From: an uncultured Nitrospinota bacterium
GTDB taxonomy: Bacteria > Nitrospinota > Nitrospinia > UBA9942
Direction of reading: 5' to 3'
NCBI GenBank assembly: GCA_964391545.1
Contig: CAYMMR010000002.1
Location: 1-34,873 of the forward strand
DNA length: 34,873 bases
Shown here: positions 5,455 through 15,899 of the stretch, in pieces
Numbering within the stretch: the stretch's first letter is position 1
How the letters are laid out: the number at the start of each line of letters is the position of its first letter
Position numbers and translations under genes: made by a program
Notes under the pieces: model-generated
Seen by the model: only the letters and a program-made list of their open reading frames with translations
Database searches by the model: none
Told to the model about the DNA's origin: nothing

Positions 5455-6201
5455 TCAGAATGGGAGTTTTTTAATCAGACTGAAACTTGCAGTCTCTGCT
5501 ACCTCTTCAAAGGTTACCGGTCTTGCCCTCATGGCCTCGACTGCAATCGTTGCCTGTCCAGAACCTTCCCATACAATATTTCCAGTCGAAACATCCCACA
5601 CCTGAAGGAATATCTTAACGGTAGTCTCCCTTGTCGAAATAAGAGATAATCCAAGAAAAGAGAATCTTGAATATGTTGTTTCCGTAAAAGATAACAGCCT
5701 TGGCTGCGCCACATACCGAACATCGAGCGCATTGCCTATCCTTTTAAGGAGGCTTATGTTCAGTATGCCGGTAATATCATAATAATCCAGCATTTCCGAA
5801 TAAGAGCTTGTAAGCCCGGCATTGTTAATGCTGTTTATAGCCTCTCTCGATGAAACAAAGACGATTGAAGGTTTTTCCAGCTTAAATGCCTTTTCCAATA
5901 TATCCGAAACCGTCAGCCTGTATTCTCCAAGGTTGCTCCACCTCGAAACTATCGTAGTAAGAAAACCTATACGATGATCGTTTACATCTTCTATAACAGG
6001 AGAGCGGTATAATTCATTTGCGCTATAGTTTATCTGCTTGAAAGGCCCGCTGCAGCCTGCAATGAAGAAGAATACAGAAGACAGAAGACAGAAGACAGAA
6101 TAAAAAAACCGATTAATCCGCAGATTACGCAGATTTTCGCAGATTTCTTGACTTCTGTCATCTGTCATCTGTCCTCTGTCTTCTGTCCTCTGTCTTCTCA
6201 T
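5455..6201 (-). CDS. putative lipoprotein (flagellar-operon associated, family not recognised)
   Basis: Lipobox FFFIAGCSG follows the hydrophobic stretch YSVFCLLSSVFFF. The N-terminal ~45 codons are encoded by heptamer arrays. Alternative start at M12 (nt 6168). The stop of the upstream maf-like gene overlaps the start (ATGA). Confidence 0.55.
   Translation of the reverse strand: MRRQRTEDRGQMTDDRSQEICENLRNLRINRFFYSVFCLLSSVFFFIAGCSGPFKQINYSANELYRSPVIEDVNDHRIGFLTTIVSRWSNLGEYRLTVSDILEKAFKLEKPSIVFVSSREAINSINNAGLTSSYSEMLDYYDITGILNISLLKRIGNALDVRYVAQPRLLSFTETTYSRFSFLGLSLISTRETTVKIFLQVWDVSTGNIVWEGSGQATIAVEAMRARPVTFEEVAETASFSLIKKLPF
6064..6199. repeat. composite periodic hairpin: (AAGACAG-type)x5 - spacer containing CGCAGAT x3 - (CTTCTGT/CATCTGT/CCTCTGT)x7
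   Basis: Left arm 6064-6100. Three CGCAGAT copies at 6119, 6128 and 6138. Right arm 6152-6199. Covers the 5' end of the lipoprotein ORF. Confidence 0.9.
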
Positions 6202-7115
6202 ATCTTATATTTTAGCATCTTATTCAGCATCCAGCTTGTATTTACTTTCTTGCTGCAATATTTATATACTACCTCGGATAATGGCATTATCTGACATCCG
6301 TTTTTAAGTATACCGCCTTCCGTGCTGTTTATAATATTTAAAGCGCCATCTCTTTTCCATTGAGAAAATGCCCATTCAAGCCACTGCTTCGTTACGGACA
6401 TGGATTTTATCGTAGGTATATTCATTCCGAATACATCTTTCTCGCTTATTATATTGTCCTTTTGTTTTTCAAATACAGAAAGCAGGTCTTCATCTTCATA
6501 TATCGAATTTCGAGTATAAACATTCCCTTCCGAATAAGAAAGGTCCTGTCCGACAAAGGCGATTGGATTGGCTCCGCTTTTAAAGGCAAGGTCATAAGCC
6601 ACGGATAACACGCTGCCGCCCGGAGTAAGGGTGCCTACGCCTCCTACTGCTTTCCGGATCTGGTCAAAGAGCGGTATATCCGGGGCATATTTATTATAAA
6701 ATACAACCCTTCCCCGCCATATTTTCAACACCGACGGATGAACGACGGTCGAGGTAACCAGAATCAGGTCTTTTGTATCTATTCCTTTAAAGAAATCCGT
6801 TACATATTTTTGAGGGTCGAGATTGACTACGAGAGAAGGGGTAATCGAATGGTAAAGGAGGGTTTTCAAGACAGCATCGCAAGATATTATCAGCGACCTC
6901 TCTCTGGCAGCATATAAATACTTTATGTTTTTATCGAGAGATGGTCCTGCCCCTACAATTATACACGGCACATCTTTAAATCTGTCTTTAAGGGCAAAAA
7001 CACCCGGACTGCGTGATATATCTCCTCTGTTTTTATTGAAATTATTCTGCCATAACCCGGTAAATAAATTTATTGTAGCATTCTTAACTTCTTTCAGTCT
7101 TTCATGGTCTACCAT
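6198..7115 (-). CDS. DUF115 / motility-associated factor (Maf)-like glycosyltransferase family protein
   Basis: CIIVGAGPSLDKNI nucleotide-binding-type motif typical of DUF115/MptE-like Maf proteins. It lies directly downstream of flgE. Confidence 0.55.
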   Translation of the reverse strand: MVDHERLKEVKNATINLFTGLWQNNFNKNRGDISRSPGVFALKDRFKDVPCIIVGAGPSLDKNIKYLYAARERSLIISCDAVLKTLLYHSITPSLVVNLDPQKYVTDFFKGIDTKDLILVTSTVVHPSVLKIWRGRVVFYNKYAPDIPLFDQIRKAVGGVGTLTPGGSVLSVAYDLAFKSGANPIAFVGQDLSYSEGNVYTRNSIYEDEDLLSVFEKQKDNIISEKDVFGMNIPTIKSMSVTKQWLEWAFSQWKRDGALNIINSTEGGILKNGCQIMPLSEVVYKYCSKKVNTSWMLNKMLKYKI

Positions 7116-11080: not shown

Positions 11081-11323
11081 ATGAGGAATATAGCCCTATT
11101 CATAAGCACACACGAAACATTGCGGGCAGAGAAATTTTTAGAGGCAGGCGGCATCGTCTTCAAAACCGTTATAAAGCCCCGCAATATTACATCCGAATGC
11201 GGCATGGGATTGGAATTCGACAGTAATGATAAAGATAGGGCATTAAAAATATGCCAACAGAATAATTTAAGATTGACAGGTATATTCCTCTTAAAAAGTG
11301 ACGGCTCTTGGGAAAAAATCTAA
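11081..11323 (+). CDS. DUF3343 domain protein
   Basis: 80 aa. The FISTHETLRAEKFLEAGGIVFKTVIKPRNITSECGMGLEF pattern is typical of DUF3343. Confidence 0.55.
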   Translation: MRNIALFISTHETLRAEKFLEAGGIVFKTVIKPRNITSECGMGLEFDSNDKDRALKICQQNNLRLTGIFLLKSDGSWEKI

Positions 11324-11363: not shown

Positions 11364-11445
11364 GTCATTGCGAGGAGCGTCAGCGACGAAGCAATCTCTT
11401 GATTTACCAACAGGTTTAGATTGCTTCGCTGCCGCTCGCAATGAC
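11364..11445. repeat. GTCATTGCGAG-type palindromic (REP-like) element, copy 1
   Basis: GTCATTGCGAGGAGCGTCAGCGACGAAGCAATCT ... AGATTGCTTCGCTGCCGCTCGCAATGAC. Confidence 0.85.
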
Positions 11446-11512
11446 AAACTATTGATGCGTTATCTATACAAGGCTATATAAAACCCCCCTTAAATAAAAA
11501 AATCGCTAATAT

Positions 11513-11539
11513 TAAAGTTATTTTGTTTTTTGCCGATAT
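11513..11539 (+). promoter_or_regulatory. sigma28 (FliA) promoter
   Basis: TAAAGTTA-N11-GCCGATAT versus consensus TAAAGTTT-N11-GCCGATAA (14/16 matches). About 110 nt upstream of the ATG at 11650. Confidence 0.75.
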
Positions 11540-11649
11540 TAAAGATAGGGAGTTTTTTAATTCATATTAAATGTTATTCATGAATCAATTCTATAGGCAA
11601 TATCGGCATAGATATTGATTTCTTGAGTTTAAAAAAGGAGGTGATTAAA

Positions 11650-11916
11650 ATGGCAACGGTTGGAGCCGTATCGAACAAAGGACAATCTCAGAATTTAGCC
11701 CAGGCAATGAGGGGCGAGCAAAAGGATCAGGCAAGCCAGACGCAGAAGAAGCAGACAAAGAGAATCGAAAAAAGGCAGAGCCAGGCAGTCGAGAAATTGA
11801 CTGACGCTTCCGAGCAGCCAAAGAGCACAGAAGAGTTAAAAAACAGAAACCAAACAGCAAAGGCAAGCGCATCGAAGATGACTGCCAAAGGGGCAAAGCT
11901 GGATAAGGTGGCGTAA
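11650..11916 (+). CDS. small Lys/Gln-rich basic protein, predicted sigma28 (class III flagellar) regulon member
   Basis: The ATG at 11650 follows a strong SD (AAAAAGGAGGTGATTAAAATG). 88 aa, low complexity. A near-consensus sigma28 promoter lies about 110 nt upstream. No family recognised. Confidence 0.55.
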   Translation: MATVGAVSNKGQSQNLAQAMRGEQKDQASQTQKKQTKRIEKRQSQAVEKLTDASEQPKSTEELKNRNQTAKASASKMTAKGAKLDKVA

Positions 11917-11942
11917 AAAGAGTTTAGGGATTAACGAAAGTT

Positions 11943-12009
11943 GTCATTGCGAGGGCGCAGCCCGAAGCAATCTCAAAAGAGGATTGCTTCGCCTTCGGCT
12001 CGCAATGAC
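11943..12009. repeat. GTCATTGCGAG-type palindromic (REP-like) element, copy 2
   Basis: GTCATTGCGAGGGCGCAGCCCGAAGCAATCT CAAAAGAGG ATTGCTTCGCCTTCGGCTCGCAATGAC. It starts 27 nt after the small-ORF stop codon. Confidence 0.85.
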
Positions 12010-12061
12010 ATACCCATATAAACTACAGTAAAATTATTTATGCCGTTCACTATAACTCTTT

Positions 12062-14467
12062 ATGATAAATAATGTCTCGTCATATCTGAATTATCAGGGA
12101 CACGGCATGATCGAGCGGTATCCCAGGGATTTGAGCATCTCCTATGTAACCGCCCATGAGATGAGACATGCCGTTCATAACGACCTTACCGCCCTCGCAA
12201 AAAAATTAGATGTGGAGCAGGATATTTCCTATAAGGTCTCAATCTCCGGTGGAAGATTGATTGCTTTGCAAGGCAAGACAGAGGCTGATTTCAAAAAAAA
12301 AGAAGCCCAGGGGCTTTCTTCTTTAGCATCGAAAGAAGCCTCTCCTTCCGCTAAAGACGAGCTCGAAAGCTATCTAAAAGTAACACGGTTAAATCGTCTT
12401 AAAGACAGCTATGAGGAACGATTAAGGGAGATAAAGAATGTGGCAAGGGGCAAGCCTGCTCCTGCAAGTAGTAAGCAGGGGGGACAAGGGGCAAGGGATA
12501 ATAATAATTTTATTTTAAAATCGGAATCATTGGATAAAGATGCAGGACAGATTATCACGGATAACACGCCATCCGATAACTCCGTTAAAAGAGAGATGGA
12601 GAAGCTGAGGCTGCGGAACGAGATAAAACTGATTGACGACCGTATCGGCGATATAGAAGACAGAAAAATATTGAATGAGATGATAGATGAGTCGAGAGCC
12701 GGGAGCCGGGGGTCGGAGGCAGAGGGTCGGGGATCGGAAGAAAATCATACGGATTTCATAAAACTGAGGAACGGCATAAGCGATGTCGTTGCCGGTTCTT
12801 TTTGGTTCATGGAAAGAGGTGTCCCGGGTGTAATCCTTATTGACGGCGCAGGCTCGGCAGTAAAGGCAAAAGATACTTTGAAAGAATTGGAAAAAACACC
12901 TAACAATTCACAGATTGCCGATAAAATCAACTTCGGGTCAAGGTTTCTCAATCTCAAAGATTCGAGCTTCGACGACCTGTCAAAAAATCTCTCGTCTCTG
13001 GGCGTCAGTTCTCAATCCCTTTCAAATAAAGAGAGCTTTAATATCCATAAAGGCATCTCATCAAACAGCGATATAGCCGATGTTCGCACAGGCTTTGGAA
13101 GCCCTAATGGAATATATAAAATAAAGGCGGAACAAACGGCGTCAGGGCATCGGATTGCGTCAAACGAATTCTCAGACCCTTATAAATCGCTTAATCTGCC
13201 GGGAAACTTTACTATAAACGGTTATACAATATCCGTAACTGCCTCGGATTCGCTCGCCGATATAAAGGATAAGATAAATTTCGGCGAAGATATAAATAAA
13301 AATGGGGGATTAGACCTGTCCGAAGATTTGAATAACAACGGGGCTATTGACAGCTTTTTCGTTAAAGGGGTAAAGTCGGGCGGCGTCTACATAGGCTCCG
13401 TATCGATATTCGAGGATATAGATTCGAACAGGCAGCTCGATTCGAGCGAGGACATCAATAATAACGAAAGACTGGACGGCGGCAGCGGCCGGATAAATGT
13501 TACTGCGTCAATAGAAAGAAACAGGCTTATGCTTACCGCCACACTTCAAGGAGATAAAAAGATAAGCCTGACAGATACGGATGGAATACTCCTTTCGCTC
13601 GGTTTTTTTCAATTGGACGGAAAGGGCGTATCCGTGCAGAAGGAGCAGCAACTCTTAGCAACAGGGGAAAATCTGAATAAAGAGCCTCAAAAAGCCGTAA
13701 TAAGCGTAAACGGAATAAAATATGAAAGAAATACAAATAACATCAACGATATAATCCCGGATACCGCCATAAATATTAAAAAGGCATCGGACTCGGATAT
13801 AACGGTTACAATATCGTCGGACATCGATCGGGCTTTAAATAATATAAAAGGTTTTGTTAATAGTTTTAATAACACATTAAAATTTATAAACGATCAGATT
13901 GCATCGGACAGGATGCTGAATAAAGACCCTGCAGTTCAGAATATAAGAAAAGATATGGTTGATAATGCCTATAATGAAATACAGTCCGATGACGGAAGCA
14001 ATCGCATATCCGAAATAGGCATAGAAAAGGACAAAAGCGAGAAGAGAAGCTTTAATCAGGTTTCTCTGACAAACCTCCTCAAAAATCTAAAGGAGCATCT
14101 TGCCGCTCCCCCTTCCAAAGGAGGAAACTCGATATTTGCCGGCCTCGATGAGGTGGGTATAACATCCATTGAAAACGACACTATGAAGATTAACGAAGAC
14201 AGGCTTAAGGAGTCATTGAAAAATAATATTGACGGCTCGTATAAAATATTATCCGGAGCCGGCGGCAGCGTAACCAATAGGCTTAAAAGTCAAATGGATT
14301 CTGCGCTCAATCCAAAGACAGGAGCTATAAAATTCAGGAAGGATGTGATAAGCTATTACATACAAAATCAAAATGTTGTAAGGGATTTCTTGAAGGACAA
14401 ACAAACCATATCCCAGACAAAAATAGAAGGCAAGTCAAAGACAACCGTGCTGTCGAAGGTCGCATAA
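12062..14467 (+). CDS. fliD: atypical FliD-like flagellar filament cap protein (HExxH-containing N-terminal region, DxNxNG Ca-loop insert)
   Basis: Central and C-terminal FliD-like blocks: GNFTINGYTISVTASDSLADIKDKINF, AVISVNGIKYERNTNNINDIIPDTAINIKK..ITVTISSDIDRALNNIKGFVNSFNNTLKFINDQ, and LDEVGITSIENDTMKINEDRLKESLKNN. The N-terminus lacks a recognisable FliD_N and carries VTAHEMRH. The start is uncertain (ATG 12062 has no SD; ATG 12107 follows AGGGA). Confidence 0.55.
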   Translation: MINNVSSYLNYQGHGMIERYPRDLSISYVTAHEMRHAVHNDLTALAKKLDVEQDISYKVSISGGRLIALQGKTEADFKKKEAQGLSSLASKEASPSAKDELESYLKVTRLNRLKDSYEERLREIKNVARGKPAPASSKQGGQGARDNNNFILKSESLDKDAGQIITDNTPSDNSVKREMEKLRLRNEIKLIDDRIGDIEDRKILNEMIDESRAGSRGSEAEGRGSEENHTDFIKLRNGISDVVAGSFWFMERGVPGVILIDGAGSAVKAKDTLKELEKTPNNSQIADKINFGSRFLNLKDSSFDDLSKNLSSLGVSSQSLSNKESFNIHKGISSNSDIADVRTGFGSPNGIYKIKAEQTASGHRIASNEFSDPYKSLNLPGNFTINGYTISVTASDSLADIKDKINFGEDINKNGGLDLSEDLNNNGAIDSFFVKGVKSGGVYIGSVSIFEDIDSNRQLDSSEDINNNERLDGGSGRINVTASIERNRLMLTATLQGDKKISLTDTDGILLSLGFFQLDGKGVSVQKEQQLLATGENLNKEPQKAVISVNGIKYERNTNNINDIIPDTAINIKKASDSDITVTISSDIDRALNNIKGFVNSFNNTLKFINDQIASDRMLNKDPAVQNIRKDMVDNAYNEIQSDDGSNRISEIGIEKDKSEKRSFNQVSLTNLLKNLKEHLAAPPSKGGNSIFAGLDEVGITSIENDTMKINEDRLKESLKNNIDGSYKILSGAGGSVTNRLKSQMDSALNPKTGAIKFRKDVISYYIQNQNVVRDFLKDKQTISQTKIEGKSKTTVLSKVA
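12442..12498. repeat. two short GGGGCAA-type heptamer runs (12442-12454, 12478-12498) inside the FliD-like CDS
   Basis: Same unit and same plus-strand orientation as the GGGGCAA arms elsewhere. No CATGACC partner arm. Encodes ARGK..QGGQGARD. Confidence 0.7.
12696..12737. repeat. single-arm degenerate heptamer array GAGCCGG GAGCCGG GGGTCGG AGGCAGA GGGTCGG GGATCGG inside the FliD-like CDS
   Basis: Read directly. Encodes RAGSRGSEAEGRGSE. Confidence 0.8.
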
Positions 14468-14874
14468 TGGGCAAAGACATAATTAATTATCTCAAAGAGG
14501 AATTAGATTGTTACGAAGCCATACTTTCTTTAACCAGGCGACAAAGAGATGCCTTGATAAAGGGCAAAGATAATGCAATCGGGGAAATAATTAAAGAAAA
14601 GGATATATTGATTAATAAGGTTAAGGAGATTGATAAAAATATCGAACGGCTATCAGCCGTCGGCTATCAACCGTCAGTAAAATCTTTAATGGAGAAAATA
14701 GAAACGATATTAAGGGAAACTGTTGAGATAGAAAATGAATGCAGAAGAATAATAGTAAATAATATGAACAGCCTGTCTAACGACATAAAGGGGCTGGGCA
14801 AGGGGAAGCAAATAGCGCGCGGATATTCTGAAAAGGGTATCTATACCCCCAAGTTTATAAGAACAAAAACTTAG
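14467..14874 (+). CDS. FlgN-like flagellar export chaperone
   Basis: 135 aa, helical. The LKEELDCYEAILSLTRRQRDALIKGKDNAIGEIIKEKDILINKV pattern resembles FlgN. The start overlaps the fliD-like stop (TAATG). Confidence 0.45.
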   Translation: MGKDIINYLKEELDCYEAILSLTRRQRDALIKGKDNAIGEIIKEKDILINKVKEIDKNIERLSAVGYQPSVKSLMEKIETILRETVEIENECRRIIVNNMNSLSNDIKGLGKGKQIARGYSEKGIYTPKFIRTKT

Positions 14875-15023: not shown

Positions 15024-15287
15024 ATGCCGACTATAAGCAGTGTGCAAAATATCATTACAGCCTACAGCCAGCAATTGAAGTTTAAAGAGAGGCTCGCATC
15101 CGCTAAAAAAATCGAGACACAGCAAACTCAAAAAGACAGCGTAACCATCTCTACTGATGCGAGGAGGCTGTTTGAAGAAGCTATGGCTTTAAAACATAGT
15201 CCGGTTGAAAGCGAAAACCATGCAGGTGCCGAAAAAGCCAATGATAACGATACCGACGGAGATTCGGAGACAACACACCATGAATAA
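15024..15287 (+). CDS. small acidic protein (weak FlgM-like DSVTISTDARRL motif)
   Basis: 87-aa ORF with GAGG 9 nt upstream and an acidic tail DNDTDGDSETTHHE. It lacks the C-terminal sigma28-binding helices expected of FlgM. Confidence 0.35.
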   Translation: MPTISSVQNIITAYSQQLKFKERLASAKKIETQQTQKDSVTISTDARRLFEEAMALKHSPVESENHAGAEKANDNDTDGDSETTHHE

Positions 15288-15899
15288 TTATTTCTTCTGC
15301 TCTTCTGCCGGCTGTTTTGGAGGCTTTTTCTTGACAATCTGCTCGCTGATTCGAACTGCCGTTGCGGGATTTATATTGCTCAATATCTTTGCGGCGCTCT
15401 TGCCTTTCATCCTCGACAATATCTGTATGGTAATATCCCTATCGAGTTTTTCGATCTGTGCGGCGGCTTCGGCAGGAGGCATAGTGCTGTAAACCTTTAC
15501 AAGATGGTTAATGCTCTTTTCTTCCAAATCCTTTCTCAATGTTATTAATTTTTCTATATCCGACTTAATGGCTGCCAGTTCATTCAGCTTCTGCTGGATG
15601 CTCTGCTGAATCATATTTAACTGTTCTTCTTTTAGTTTAATCTCGTTCTCCTTTTTTGCCAGTTCCTCTCTCTTCTTTTCGAAAGACTTCAACAACTCAA
15701 GGTCAATCTCGGACTGTGCCTCTGTCTTGTTCTCCGATGCAGGCTGTTCCTGGCTTTTTTCCGCAGAAGGGGCTTCGGCCTTCTGCTGTGCATAGGATGG
15801 AGAAACAAGGGGTATCTCCTTTCCATACCAAAGGAGAGTCAGTCCCGCCTTTAGCGATATAACCGCTATAAAAATTATTCCGATTTTTTTATTCAGCAT
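15288..15899 (-). CDS. MotE/YlxF-like flagellar protein (MgtE-N-like domain)
   Basis: N-terminal membrane anchor IGIIFIAVISLKAGLTLLW, a coiled coil, then VYSTMPPAEAAAQIEKLDRDITIQILSRMKGKSAAKILSNINPATA. It lies downstream of fliJ as in Bacillus ylxF. It overlaps fliJ by 11 nt. Confidence 0.7.
   Translation of the reverse strand: MLNKKIGIIFIAVISLKAGLTLLWYGKEIPLVSPSYAQQKAEAPSAEKSQEQPASENKTEAQSEIDLELLKSFEKKREELAKKENEIKLKEEQLNMIQQSIQQKLNELAAIKSDIEKLITLRKDLEEKSINHLVKVYSTMPPAEAAAQIEKLDRDITIQILSRMKGKSAAKILSNINPATAVRISEQIVKKKPPKQPAEEQKK

What the first reader, a model, noticed from the sequence alone, without database searches (positions are those of the whole stretch)
12062..14467. Atypical FliD-like cap protein: no recognisable FliD N-terminal domain, an HExxH motif, repeat-derived segments and tandem DxNxNG calcium-type loops
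The central and C-terminal blocks look like FliD (see feature). The first ~350 aa do not. They start with ...LSISYVTAHEMRHAVHNDL...SYKVSISGGRLIALQG, which contains an HExxH motif (nt 12155-12169). From memory this resembles the VRAHExAH...Y.Y..GPDG..YA.GGEV core of the SprA-related (PF12118) putative metalloprotease family. That match is inference only. Next come coiled-coil or low-complexity sequence containing two heptamer-derived segments (12442-12498, 12696-12737). Inside the FliD-like head region there is an insert with four EF-hand/dockerin-like loops, roughly nt 13286-13486: DINKNGGLD, LSEDLNNNGAID, EDIDSNRQLD and SEDINNNERLDGG. A filament cap that combines a possible zinc-protease motif with Ca-binding loops has not been described, to my knowledge.
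Basis: partly seen in the sequence, partly recalled or inferred. Interest (0 to 1): 0.65.

Follow-up and report, generated by a model that had tools for sequence, protein, structure and literature searches.

The report
Flagellar cap with HExxH domain
This is a real flagellar filament-cap gene (fliD) from a Nitrospinota-type bacterium with two conserved, undescribed additions: a small zinc-motif (HExxH) domain fused to its N-terminus, and four calcium-type loops in its head. The biochemical role of both additions is still unproven.

Summary
The 801-aa ORF at 12062-14467 is real and is FliD (Pfam FliD_C 1e-22; Foldseek to cap structures E~1e-19). It lies in a flagellar cluster with a sigma-28 promoter upstream and a FlgN/FliT-like chaperone gene downstream.

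But a divergent FliD_N segment is present, displaced to about aa 236-365. The true extension is about 235-255 aa.

Its core (aa 8-81) is a compact domain, not a chance HExxH. HExxH is invariant in 39/39 relatives, with a conserved upstream GHG..E. AF2 gives pLDDT 91. It is as conserved as the FliD head.

The domain defines a family absent from Pfam:
- about 48 standalone 180-340-aa proteins, genus-wide in Leptospira;
- at least 11 FliD fusions, in Nitrospinota, Thermodesulfovibrionales and others.

It is not a PF12118 (SprA-related) member by HMM. Profile-profile comparison (hairpin alone P=1.7e-4, 0/200 shuffles) and a shared C-terminal tail suggest it is a distant sister. Its fold matches no solved zincin, so protease activity is unproven.

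The four EF-hand/dockerin-like loops (13289-13486) are the best-conserved part of the protein at long range. They also occur in FliDs that lack the module.

Verdict: a new variant of a known kind.

The parts
11513..11539 (+). Sigma-28 (FliA)-type promoter consensus, TAAA-N15-GCCGATAT, upstream of the small ORF and fliD
   Evidence: This is the only exact match in the window. The sequence was read directly. Function is inferred from the consensus only.
11650..11916 (+). Small polar ORF (88 aa from the ATG at 11650, preceded by an AAGGAGGTG ribosome-binding site), ending ...KGAKLDKVA. It occupies the position directly upstream of fliD.
   Evidence: ORF and sequence. It has no Pfam or NCBIfam family. 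A syntenic polar ORF with the same kind of tail is found upstream of fliD in L039 (...GSNVDKMA), L035 (...GQNVDSLI) and L040 (...GRNVDELI).
11942..12010 (.). Long imperfect palindrome (REP-like element) between the small ORF and fliD. A partial copy lies at 11415-11449.
   Evidence: The RNA fold is -40.1 kcal/mol, z=-5.8, with 0/200 shuffles folding as well.
12062..14467 (+). fliD, 801 aa: N-terminal HExxH-module extension followed by a complete FliD
12083..12304 (+). HExxH mini-domain (aa 8-81): a short beta-hairpin carrying Y-x-GHG-x-x-E, a long helix carrying V..HEMRH, then a long beta-hairpin (ISYKVSISGGRLIALQGKTEA)
   Evidence: The family profile search gave 62 hits. Alignment A4 shows HExxH invariant and GHG and E at >=90%. 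The AF2 model has pLDDT 90.6 and pTM 0.71. Identity is 78% within the clade.
12098..12115 (+). GHGMIE (aa 13-18): conserved His and Glu upstream of the HExxH, candidate extra metal ligands
   Evidence: >=90% conserved in A4. The ligand role is inferred.
12155..12169 (+). HEMRH (aa 32-36), the HExxH motif
   Evidence: Coordinates. Invariant in 39/39 sequences.
12362..12439 (+). Conserved helix (aa 101-126) that follows the module. It is also covered by the profile match in many standalone relatives.
   Evidence: matches extend to profile positions 125-130; helix 98-128; 62% identity.
12578..12697 (+). Predicted long helix or coiled coil (aa 173-212), flanked by poorly conserved low-complexity linkers
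   Evidence: helix 173-212. One search gives 59% identity here, against 21-39% in the linkers.
12767..13156 (+). Displaced, divergent FliD_N-like region (aa ~236-365; Pfam match at aa 294-363)
   Evidence: 25.4 bits on the excised segment. (module-less relatives align from here). (helices 262-321).
13205..13279 (+). Flagellin_IN-type motif (aa 382-406), immediately before the loop insert
   Evidence: E=0.0012 on the segment, below Pfam's cut-off.
13286..13486 (+). Insert with four EF-hand/dockerin-like 12-residue loops in two back-to-back pairs (aa 410-433 and 452-475), separated by an 18-aa spacer
13688..14440 (+). FliD_C domain (aa 543-793)
   Evidence: Pfam E=1.1e-22, 81 bits against a 25.4 cut-off. 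Foldseek matches to cap structures.
14467..14874 (+). FlgN/FliT-like export chaperone gene whose start overlaps the fliD stop codon
   Evidence: Pfam FlgN 1.5e-12 and FliT 7e-4. The same synteny is seen in L035, L039 and L040.
15024..15287 (+). DVU0524-family (FlgM-associated) small protein gene
   Evidence: NCBIfam NF041863 E=7e-7, below its cut-off.

Best explanation
The gene encodes the filament-cap protein FliD of a Nitrospinota-like bacterium. It is transcribed as a late (sigma-28) flagellar gene together with its FlgN/FliT-type chaperone.

Two lineage-specific additions are grafted onto a complete FliD (D0/D1 legs plus D2/D3 head).

(1) N-terminal extension. About 235-255 aa have the architecture of a whole standalone protein of an undescribed family: an ~75-aa HExxH mini-domain, a conserved helix, a low-complexity linker and a coiled coil. 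The fusion lacks that family's C-terminal tail. The family is a probable distant sister of PF12118 (SprA-related / CJM1_0395). The Campylobacter member of PF12118 reaches the medium only when the flagellum is intact.

Proposed mechanism (inferred):
- Standalone members are substrates of the flagellar type III export system.
- In this lineage one of them fused to FliD, so the module leads FliD through the export channel.
- It folds outside the cytoplasm and binds a metal (most likely Zn) through H32 and H36, plus H14 and/or E18.
- It acts at the growing filament tip as a small metal-dependent hydrolase or binding unit.
- FliD's N-terminal region normally works inside the cap cavity. The extension is therefore most likely either clipped off after export or threaded out on its flexible linkers.

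(2) Loop insert. A 67-aa insert in the head, within the Flagellin_IN motif loop, carries four EF-hand-type loops. These most likely bind Ca2+ and rigidify the exposed cap plate.

Shown: FliD identity; the domain boundaries; conservation of both additions; existence and distribution of the module family; its shared features with PF12118.
Inferred: metal binding, catalysis, export of standalone members, processing, and Ca2+ binding.
For: FliD identity:
- Pfam FliD_C 1.1e-22.
- PDB sequence hits to 5fhy and 5h5v.
- Foldseek E~1e-19 to full-length cap structures 9m67, 9gnz and 5h5v.
- The neighbours are fliK, flgD, flgE, fliF-J and flgBC, with a chaperone gene downstream and an exact sigma-28 consensus upstream.
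- There is no second FliD in the window.

The fusion is real:
- One continuous ORF is found in more than 20 independent homologues, including Thermodesulfovibrionales.
- The family-wide YxGHG motif is encoded upstream of Met16, so translation starts at 12062.
- The internal ATG at 12809 has no Shine-Dalgarno sequence.

The module is a constrained domain:
- 78% identity in the clade, against 21-39% in the linkers.
- HExxH is invariant in 39/39.
- AF2 pLDDT 90.6.
- An exhaustive profile search found 62 relatives, about 48 standalone and at least 11 FliD fusions. One subgroup is genus-wide in Leptospira.

Link to PF12118:
- hhalign P=0.0016 for the whole module.
- The hairpin alone gives P=1.7e-4, with 0/200 shuffles reaching it.
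- The tail G-x-h-h-[DN]-h-x-[AVILG]$ is present in 16/49 standalone module proteins and 35/120 PF12118 proteins. It is found in 0 unrelated ORFs among 508 background ORFs.
- CJM1_0395 depends on the flagellum to reach the supernatant (PMC5223770).
- Weak Pfam matches of the module are enriched for metallopeptidase families: DUF6782 in 8/39, eCIS_core in 5, plus M48, M57 and others.

Ca loops:
- Nineteen residues are invariant across about 30%-identical FliDs.
- This region is the best conserved at long range, 52% against 22% for FliD_C.
- Loops 1 and 3 fit EF-hand positions 1-12.
- The nearest PDB sequences are a Ca-binding dockerin and EF-hands.
Against: - The confident model of the module matches no zincin or any other solved fold (best Foldseek E=0.26, HU/IHF-like arms).
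- At ~75 aa the module is smaller than any metallopeptidase known to me.
- No Pfam metallopeptidase model reaches its threshold.
- PF12118 itself has never been shown to be a protease. It is only a weak FFAS prediction (PMC3650047).
- When the V..HE..H block is kept and the rest of the profile shuffled, 12/200 controls reach the full-module hhalign score. Hairpin and tail evidence are therefore needed to argue homology.
- Standalone members examined in Leptospira, and a PF12118 gene in Thermodesulforhabdus, are not in flagellar clusters.
- The C. jejuni CJM1_0395 mutant has normal motility.
- A 255-aa N-terminal extension sits where FliD's termini must contact flagellin inside the cap (PMC12221982). 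There is no evidence yet for processing.
- The Ca-loop region models poorly (pLDDT 46-59). It matches no EF-hand or dockerin HMM.
- A second, canonical fliD elsewhere in the genome cannot be excluded.
Confidence: 0.55

Rival explanations
1. The HExxH module is a non-catalytic metal-binding or oligomerisation domain. For example, its long beta-hairpins from five subunits could pack together, or it could control the timing of export or cap assembly. On this reading the HExxH is a structural zinc site, not a protease active site.
For: - The fold is a helix plus two beta-hairpins with no zincin match.
- The module is very small, ~75 aa.
- The conserved GHG..E gives a possible four-ligand structural site.
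- The module sits at the N-terminus, where FliD functions inside the cap.
- No peptidase HMM reaches threshold.
Against: - The Glu of HExxH is invariant in 39/39. That is typical of a catalytic base and is not needed for a purely structural His site.
- Weak profile matches are specifically to the active-site helices of metallopeptidases.
Confidence: 0.3
2. This gene is a specialised paralogue, and a canonical fliD elsewhere in the genome makes the working cap. The fusion protein would then be mainly a vehicle to export the HExxH module, or a cap for a different filament type.
For: Only 35 kb of the genome is visible. The atypical N-terminus conflicts with the known role of the FliD termini.
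Against: - The gene sits in the canonical fliD slot: sigma-28 promoter, small ORF upstream, chaperone directly downstream, inside the main flagellar cluster.
- The same synteny holds for module-less relatives.
- All FliD regions are under strong constraint.
- There is no second FliD in the window.
Confidence: 0.12
3. The N-terminal module is simply a member of Pfam PF12118 (SprA-related / CJM1_0395 putative metalloprotease) fused to FliD.
For: Shared HExxH helix, 'DG..AV.G' hairpin and, in standalone relatives, the C-terminal tail.
Against: - There is no PF12118 hit at E<=10 for the module or any of about 60 relatives, while true members score 1e-35 to 1e-42.
- The module lacks PF12118's conserved RD.EV lead-in, the GEV motif and the whole 'ID.SPV.GDP.ATI..M..V..AALAPAEPS.QD' segment.
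- The module has a GHG..E hairpin that PF12118 lacks.
Confidence: 0.08
4. Artefact: the long ORF is a mis-assembly or frameshift that joins a separate upstream gene to fliD. Or the HExxH is a chance motif in a divergent FliD_N.
For: There is no clear Shine-Dalgarno sequence before the 12062 ATG.
Against: - The same continuous architecture is found in more than 20 independent assemblies from several phyla.
- The motif is invariant in 39/39.
- The module is absent from canonical FliD_N.
- FliD_N is separately recognisable downstream.
Confidence: 0.02

Closest known systems
FliD / HAP2 filament cap (Pfam FliD_N PF02465 + FliD_C PF07195; structures 5H5V, 5FHY, 6SIH, 9GNZ)
   Same: - D0/D1 helical legs and a D2/D3 head.
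- A significant FliD_C match and a whole-chain fold match.
- Late-operon position with a dedicated chaperone gene.
   Different: - FliD_N is displaced by about 235-255 aa, by an added HExxH module, helix, linkers and coiled coil.
- A 67-aa insert with four Asp/Asn loops lies in the head.
- The protein has 801 aa, against about 420-470 in enterobacteria.
PF12118 SprA-related / 'putative metalloprotease CJM1_0395 family' (C. jejuni CJM1_0395, flagellum-dependent in supernatants; PMC5223770)
   Same: - The order helix(V..HE..H), then beta-hairpin with a DG turn and an AV.G strand.
- Polar or coiled-coil regions.
- In standalone proteins, an extreme C-terminal tail of the form G-S-L-[IV]-D-[LV]-x-[AV].
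- A link to the flagellum.
   Different: - It is not detected by the PF12118 HMM.
- The module has an N-terminal YxGHGxxE hairpin in place of PF12118's RD.EV lead-in.
- It lacks the GEV motif and the conserved ~40-aa segment after the hairpin.
- The module sits at the N-terminus, not mid-protein.
Flagellinolysin / proteolytic flagellins (PMC5595980, PMC7643111)
   Same: A precedent for an HExxH metallopeptidase domain built into a flagellar structural protein and exported through the flagellar channel.
   Different: - There, a full-size collagenase-type peptidase domain is inserted in the flagellin hypervariable region, present in thousands of copies, and its activity is proven.
- Here, a ~75-aa module of unknown fold class sits at the N-terminus of the cap protein (five copies per filament), and its activity is unproven.
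EF-hand (PROSITE PS00018) and type I dockerin Ca2+-binding loops (e.g. NagH dockerin 2JNK/2OZN)
   Same: - 12-residue loops with D1, N/D3, N/D5, G6, a hydrophobic residue at 8 and D9.
- In loops 1 and 3, E12 as well.
- The loops occur in pairs.
   Different: - No helix-loop-helix is predicted.
- The loops are fused back to back: E12 of one loop directly precedes D1 of the next.
- No EF-hand or dockerin HMM matches.
- Loops 2 and 4 lack the acidic residue at position 12.
Minimal zincins (minigluzincins such as proabylysin and selecase, ~100-110 aa). This comparison rests on my own knowledge.
   Same: Very small HExxH proteins that have been proposed or shown to be peptidases.
   Different: Those have a recognisable zincin fold with a downstream third ligand. 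This module shows no fold match, and its only conserved extra His and Glu lie upstream of the HExxH.

Membership tests
FliD filament cap | FliD_C domain above Pfam's gathering score | tested here: met
   81.1 bits against a cut-off of 25.4, E=1.1e-22, aa 543-793.
FliD filament cap | FliD_N domain | tested here: inconclusive
   On the whole protein it scores 22.9 bits against a 24.8 cut-off. On the excised segment it scores 25.4 bits (E=2.2e-5). Only profile positions 28-97 match, at aa 294-363. Homologue P0029 scores 45 bits. The domain is present but divergent, and it is not N-terminal.
FliD filament cap | Overall fold like solved FliD structures | tested here: met
   Foldseek E=2e-19 to 1e-16 against 9m67, 9gnz, 5h5v and 6sih, probability 1.00. 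The core pLDDT is 85-90.
FliD filament cap | Flagellar gene neighbourhood with a cognate chaperone gene | tested here: met
   A FlgN/FliT-like gene overlaps the stop codon. The surrounding cluster holds fliK, flgD, flgE, fliE-J and flgBC.
FliD filament cap | Located at the filament tip and required for filament assembly | not testable with these tools
   This needs genetics or proteomics of purified filaments.
PF12118 SprA-related / CJM1_0395 family | Match to the PF12118 HMM at or above 27.3 bits | tested here: not met
   There is no hit at E<=10 for the module, for 39 module sequences or for 61 full-length relatives. The positive controls P0176 and P0158 score 122 and 144 bits.
PF12118 SprA-related / CJM1_0395 family | HExxH helix followed by the GPDG..YAVGGEV hairpin | tested here: inconclusive
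   hhalign gives P=0.0016 and probability 16% for the whole module. Keeping the HExxH block and shuffling the rest reaches that score in 12/200 trials. The hairpin alone gives P=1.7e-4 and probability 50%, with 0/200 shuffles reaching it. The conserved 'GEV' is 'GKT/GET' here.
PF12118 SprA-related / CJM1_0395 family | Conserved segment after the hairpin (ID.SPV.GDP.ATI..M..V..AALAPAEPS.QD..VAA) | tested here: not met
   It is present in all 25 PF12118 sequences of A6. It is absent from the module family, where a variable linker follows the hairpin.
PF12118 SprA-related / CJM1_0395 family | Extreme C-terminal tail of the type G-S-L-[IV]-D-[LV]-x-[AV] | tested here: not met
   In the FliD fusion the tail is replaced by FliD. 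It is met in standalone relatives (16/49) and in PF12118 (35/120), with 0 unrelated hits among 508 background ORFs.
Zincin metallopeptidases | HExxH motif on a helix, with an invariant Glu | tested here: met
   Invariant in 39/39, on helix 15-39 of the module model.
Zincin metallopeptidases | Zincin fold: mixed beta-sheet, active-site helix, and a downstream third zinc ligand | tested here: not met
   No zincin appears among the Foldseek PDB matches (best E=0.26, HU/IHF-like). There is no conserved His, Glu or Asp downstream. The only conserved extra His and Glu are upstream, in GHG..E.
Zincin metallopeptidases | Zinc binding and peptidase activity | not testable with these tools
   This needs biochemistry.
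EF-hand / dockerin Ca2+-binding loops | 12-residue loop consensus (PROSITE PS00018) | tested here: inconclusive
   Loops 1 and 3 fit positions 1-12 if Gly is allowed at position 7. Position 13 is Asp, not a hydrophobic residue, so the strict pattern gives no match. Loops 2 and 4 lack E/D at position 12.
EF-hand / dockerin Ca2+-binding loops | Match to an EF-hand or dockerin profile | tested here: not met
   Pfam gives EF-hand_5 at E=9.1 only and no dockerin hit. The PDB profile search gives the NagH dockerin at E=0.7 and SCaMC-1 EF-hands at E=2.5-3.7.
EF-hand / dockerin Ca2+-binding loops | Ca2+ binding | not testable with these tools
   This needs ITC, DSF or a crystal structure.

The most novel reading that the evidence does not exclude
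The HExxH module family, PF12118 and the small polar ORFs encoded just upstream of fliD together form a previously unrecognised class of flagellum-exported accessory proteins. They are marked by a shared C-terminal tail (G-x-h-h-D-h-x-A) that docks them to the cap or to its export machinery.

In Nitrospinota and Nitrospirota the docking has been made covalent by fusion to FliD. This would create the first enzymatically (Zn-hydrolase) active, Ca2+-stabilised flagellar cap. It would also raise the question of how a cap tolerates or processes a 255-aa N-terminal passenger at the site where flagellin folds.
Probability: 0.2. Interest if true: 0.85.

Novelty: new variant of a known kind. Interest (0 to 1): 0.6.

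Why it matters
- **The cap mechanism.** FliD's termini are now known to work inside the cap cavity and to be essential for flagellin insertion (PMC12221982). A conserved 255-aa passenger, with a folded metal-motif domain at exactly that end, is hard to reconcile with the current model. The cap must either process it or accommodate it, and either outcome would be informative.
- **A new protein family.** The work defines a domain family that no Pfam model captures. It is present across all Leptospira species examined, and in Candidatus Wallbacteria, Nitrospinota and Nitrospirota.
- **A functional lead for PF12118.** The new family ties by several independent features to the uncharacterised PF12118/CJM1_0395 family. 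The only experimental datum for that family is flagellum-dependent secretion. The fusion to FliD is a Rosetta-stone argument that the whole superfamily acts at or through the flagellum.
- **Calcium-type loops in the cap.** The invariant loops in the cap head have not been described. They may matter for cap stability or adhesion in marine bacteria.

Tried and rejected
- **Pfam and NCBIfam scans of the N-terminal segments at E<=10** gave only motif-level noise: Zn_peptidase, YpfJ, Tsi3.
- **NCBIfam as a test for the CJM1_0395 family** is uninformative. True PF12118 controls gave no hit, so that model is not in this copy.
- **The word-indexed homology search with the module profile** reached only 8 short unnamed fragments. 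Their contigs were uninformative, or showed only a PilZ neighbour.
The Leptospira subgroup alignment worked.
- **A standalone module gene next to fliD in module-less relatives** was not found. The upstream gene there is a long polar protein without HExxH.
- **The idea that the shared tail is the YjfB_motility (PF14070) motif** does not generalise. Only 1 of 89 C-termini matched, the Leptospira one at E=0.0045.
- **An internal translation start** that would make a canonical-length FliD is not supported. There is no Shine-Dalgarno sequence before the ATG at 12809, and that Met is absent in P0014.
- **PF12118 gene context.** One lookup failed (P0114). The other showed no flagellar neighbours.
- **Metal-site geometry** could not be measured, because model coordinates are not exposed.
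- **A FlaG connection.** I recall that FlaG proteins end in a similar G-L-L-V-D-x-K-A tail and occupy the same slot upstream of fliD. I had no FlaG sequences to test this, so it remains a lead from memory only.

Full report
**1. What is at the coordinates**

The window contains an uninterrupted 801-aa ORF at 12062-14467 on the + strand.
- HEMRH lies at aa 32-36, nt 12155-12169.
- The two 'heptamer-derived' segments are marginal. Tandem Repeats Finder reports only a 15-nt array (GAGCCGG x2.1) at 12696-12710 and nothing at 12442-12498.

**2. It is FliD**

- Pfam FliD_C matches aa 543-793 at E=1.1e-22, with 81 bits against a cut-off of 25.
- NCBIfam FliD equivalogs match partially.
- The sequence hits the solved Pseudomonas and Salmonella FliD fragments.
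- An AlphaFold2 model built on 17 homologues has a confident core (pLDDT 85-90 over aa 290-410 and 480-610).
- That model matches full-length cap structures, including native cap-filament complexes, at Foldseek E about 1e-19.

The gene lies in a flagellar cluster:
- fliK, flgD and flgE lie on one side.
- An FlbB-like gene, fliJ, fliI, fliH, fliG and fliF were scanned and lie on the other side. The small ORFs beyond them are probably fliE, flgC and flgB, judged from position only.
- A FlgN/FliT-like chaperone gene overlaps its stop codon, followed by a DVU0524-type FlgM-associated gene.
- The only exact sigma-28 consensus in the window (TAAA-N15-GCCGATAT, 11513-11539) lies upstream.
- No second FliD is encoded in the 35 kb.

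**3. Where FliD begins**

That is too strong.
- FliD_N profile positions 28-97 match aa 294-363. The score is 22.9 bits on the whole protein and 25.4 bits (E=2.2e-5) on the excised segment.
- A homologue scores 45 bits.
- Relatives of 610-630 aa that lack the N-terminal module align from about aa 236 onward.
- The model has the expected long helices at 262-321.

The non-FliD extension is therefore about 235-255 aa.

**4. The extension is real and conserved**

- Thirteen full-length homologues of 58-86% identity, named Nitrospinae FliD by their sources, cover the whole protein. So does a 33%-identical 758-aa protein.
- An exhaustive HMMER search of 1.84 billion representatives, with a profile of aa 1-130, found 62 proteins at E<=1e-3.
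- At least 11 of these are FliD fusions of 631-866 aa from divergent lineages. They include Thermodesulfovibrionales (Nitrospirota) and other Nitrospinota, and all are annotated simply 'FliD'.
- About 48 are standalone proteins of 180-340 aa. Their architecture is: module at the N-terminus, acidic or Pro-rich linker, coiled coil, and a short hydrophobic C-terminal tail.
- Frameshift or mis-assembly is excluded by this recurrence.
- The family-wide YxGHG motif is encoded upstream of Met16, so the 12062 ATG is the start.
- An internal start at 12809 has no ribosome-binding site.

**5. Anatomy of the module**

- A 39-sequence alignment gives the signature Y.GHG..E-(8)-S..HV..HE..H-(7)-A...G.E....I.I.YE..DGkLVAV.GeT.A. 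HExxH is invariant, and GHG and the first Glu are at least 90% conserved.
- With this alignment AlphaFold2 gives a confident 74-aa model (pLDDT 90.6, pTM 0.71). It has a short beta-hairpin carrying GHG..E, a 25-residue helix carrying HExxH, and a long beta-hairpin.
- Within the Nitrospinota clade the module is 78% identical. This equals the FliD head (76-78%) and exceeds FliD_C (70%). The linkers are only 21-39% identical.

It is a constrained domain, not a chance motif.

**6. Is it SprA-related (PF12118)?**

The HMM does not detect it:
- PF12118 is not detected in the module, in 39 module sequences or in 61 full-length relatives, even at E<=10.
- True PF12118 proteins scanned in the same way score 122-144 bits.
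- NCBIfam could not be used, because its copy lacks that model.

To go further I retrieved 1,459 real PF12118 proteins and aligned 25 of them. The search was seeded with the motif as recalled, and only the returned proteins, labelled PF12118 by precomputed Pfam, were used.

Profile-profile results:
- hhalign puts HExxH on HExxH and 'DGkLVAV.G.T' on 'DG..YAVGGEV', with P=0.0016 but probability only 16%.
- Fully column-shuffled profiles never reach the real score (0/200). If the V..HE..H block is kept and the rest shuffled, 12/200 do.
- Removing the HExxH helix from both profiles and comparing the hairpins alone gives P=1.7e-4 and probability 50%, with 0/200 shuffles reaching it.

Independent tail evidence:
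- The extreme C-terminal motif G-x-h-h-[DN]-h-x-[AVILG] is found in 16/49 standalone module proteins and 35/120 PF12118 proteins.
- Among 508 background ORFs it occurs only in the 15 Leptospira module proteins themselves.

The families also differ:
- PF12118 has an RD.EV lead-in, a GEV motif and a conserved ~40-aa segment after the hairpin. The module lacks all three.
- The module has a GHG..E hairpin that PF12118 lacks.

I conclude that the module family is a probable distant sister of PF12118, not a member.

**7. Is it a metalloprotease?**

The evidence is weak.

In favour:
- The catalytic-type Glu is invariant.
- The sub-threshold Pfam matches of module sequences are dominated by metallopeptidase families: DUF6782 in 8/39 (best 1.2e-4), eCIS_core in 5, plus M48, M57, M60, M13, M4, M8 and M91.
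- The nearest PDB sequence matches are active-site helices of snake-venom metalloproteinases, at E=0.2-0.5.

Against:
- The confident model resembles no solved zincin. The best Foldseek E is 0.26, to HU/IHF-like helix-plus-arm proteins.
- The only extra conserved His and Glu lie upstream of the motif.
- PF12118 itself is only a predicted zincin (FFAS Z=-7.7; PMC3650047).

**8. Link to the flagellum**

- The PF12118 protein CJM1_0395 of C. jejuni is present in supernatants only when the flagellum is intact, in two strains. Its mutant remains motile (PMC5223770).
- The module's repeated fusion to FliD is a Rosetta-stone argument for a flagellar role.
- Gene neighbourhoods are not flagellar, however. 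In Leptospira the 222-aa standalone gene is conserved genus-wide, in 32 loci, next to a PilZ-domain gene. A Thermodesulforhabdus PF12118 gene has unrelated neighbours.
- In module-less relatives the gene upstream of fliD is not a module gene. It is a long polar low-complexity protein.
- That protein, and the window's own 88-aa upstream ORF, end in a similar tail...GAKLDKVA...GSNVDKMA...GQNVDSLI...GRNVDELI.
- A weak YjfB_motility match to the Leptospira tail did not generalise, with 1 of 89 matching.

**9. Steric problem and proposed mechanism**

The native cap-filament structure shows that FliD's terminal regions, including an N-terminal loop, contact flagellin D0/D1 inside the cap and are essential (PMC12221982). 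Five 255-aa extensions at that position are hard to accommodate.

My best inference:
- The module, which leads the chain through the export channel, folds and binds metal outside the cytoplasm.
- The extension is then either clipped off or threaded out on its poorly conserved flexible linkers.

This is inference. There is no direct evidence for processing.

**10. The loop insert**

- The insert replaces the short loop between the helix and strand of the Flagellin_IN motif...SLADIKDKIN-[insert]-RINVTASIE.
- It comprises two back-to-back loop pairs separated by 18 residues.
- Loops 1 and 3 satisfy EF-hand positions 1-12: D1, N/D3, N5, hydrophobic 8, D9, E12.
- Nineteen insert-region residues are invariant across 17 FliDs that are about 30% identical overall. 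The segment is the best-conserved region at long range, 52% against 22% for FliD_C.
- The loops occur in FliDs without the module. One module-bearing FliD (P0035) lacks them. So the two features are independent.
- No EF-hand or dockerin HMM matches.
- The nearest solved sequences are a Ca-binding dockerin (2jnk, E=0.7) and SCaMC-1 EF-hands, all sub-threshold.
- AlphaFold is unsure here, with pLDDT 46-59.
- Ca2+-dependent stabilisation of the exposed cap plate is the most economical reading. A dockerin-like binding role is the alternative.
- I found no paper describing Ca-binding loops or a metal-motif domain in FliD. Proteolytic flagellins are the nearest precedent.

**11. Verdict**

This is a real FliD with two conserved, undescribed additions. 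It is a new variant of a known kind. It also reveals an uncatalogued domain family allied to PF12118. The descriptive conclusions are secure. Metal binding, catalysis, export of the standalone proteins, processing and Ca2+ binding are all inferences that simple experiments could settle.

Noticed in passing
window 11650-11916 (+); also L039 3652-3924, L035 4577-5362, L040 2894-3880: A polar, low-complexity ORF of 88-328 aa is conserved directly upstream of fliD, in the slot usually held by flaG. It always ends in G-x-x-[VL]-D-x-[LMV]-[AI]. This resembles the C-terminal tail shared by PF12118 and the standalone HExxH-module proteins. It matches no Pfam family.
   Followed up: partly
L003-L034 (e.g. 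L018 7950-8618, Leptospira interrogans): Every Leptospira species sampled (32 loci) encodes a ~220-aa standalone HExxH-module protein: module, coiled coil and a ...G-N-F-L-D-A-R-I tail. It is unannotated and lies next to a small PilZ-domain gene. Its C-terminus is the only one of 89 tested that weakly matches Pfam YjfB_motility (E=0.0045).
   Followed up: partly
window 11942-12010 and 11415-11449: A REP-like palindromic element (GTCATTGCGAG...CTCGCAATGAC) lies between the small ORF and fliD. It folds at -40 kcal/mol (z=-5.8), and a partial second copy lies about 530 nt upstream. It could be a terminator, an attenuator or an mRNA stabiliser within the late operon.
   Followed up: partly
window 11513-11539 (+) and 11600-11626 (-): An exact sigma-28 consensus lies on the + strand upstream of the small ORF. 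A one-mismatch copy lies on the - strand about 70 nt away and faces the other way.
   Followed up: partly
window 15288-15899 (-): A 203-aa protein carries an MgtE_N domain and a sub-threshold match to the spirochaete periplasmic-flagellum collar protein FlbB (NCBIfam E=2.4e-8, 34 bits against a cut-off of 110). It sits next to fliJ in a non-spirochaete cluster.
   Followed up: no
window 6198-7115 (-): An MptE-like (DUF115 / motility-accessory-factor-type) gene lies beside flgE. Proteins of this kind are associated with flagellin glycosylation.
   Followed up: no
window 11081-11323 (+): A small Se/S-carrier-like protein gene (Pfam PF11823, E=1e-16) sits between the fliK operon and the fliD operon.
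   Followed up: no
L036 2500-6520 and L037: In the 33%-identical relative (P0014), the module-bearing fliD is followed by two motA/motB pairs with a PilZ-domain gene between them, not by the chaperone gene. A PilZ gene again lies close to an HExxH-module gene.
   Followed up: no
P0035 (703 aa); P0041, P0050, P0051 (631-646 aa): Other module-FliD fusions show that the two additions are independent. P0035 has the module but no Asp/Asn loops. The AT-rich 631-646-aa group has the module and only one loop pair (INWGEDLNHNYQLDEGEDLNGNNKLDGG).
   Followed up: partly
L035 3565-4173 and L040 1950-2582: In module-less relatives, a TP0873_N/DUF8042 protein gene lies between the flagellin gene and the polar ORF upstream of fliD. 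Pfam names this domain after a Treponema protein. Like the FlbB-like gene, it is a spirochaete-type flagellar accessory gene in these lineages.
   Followed up: no
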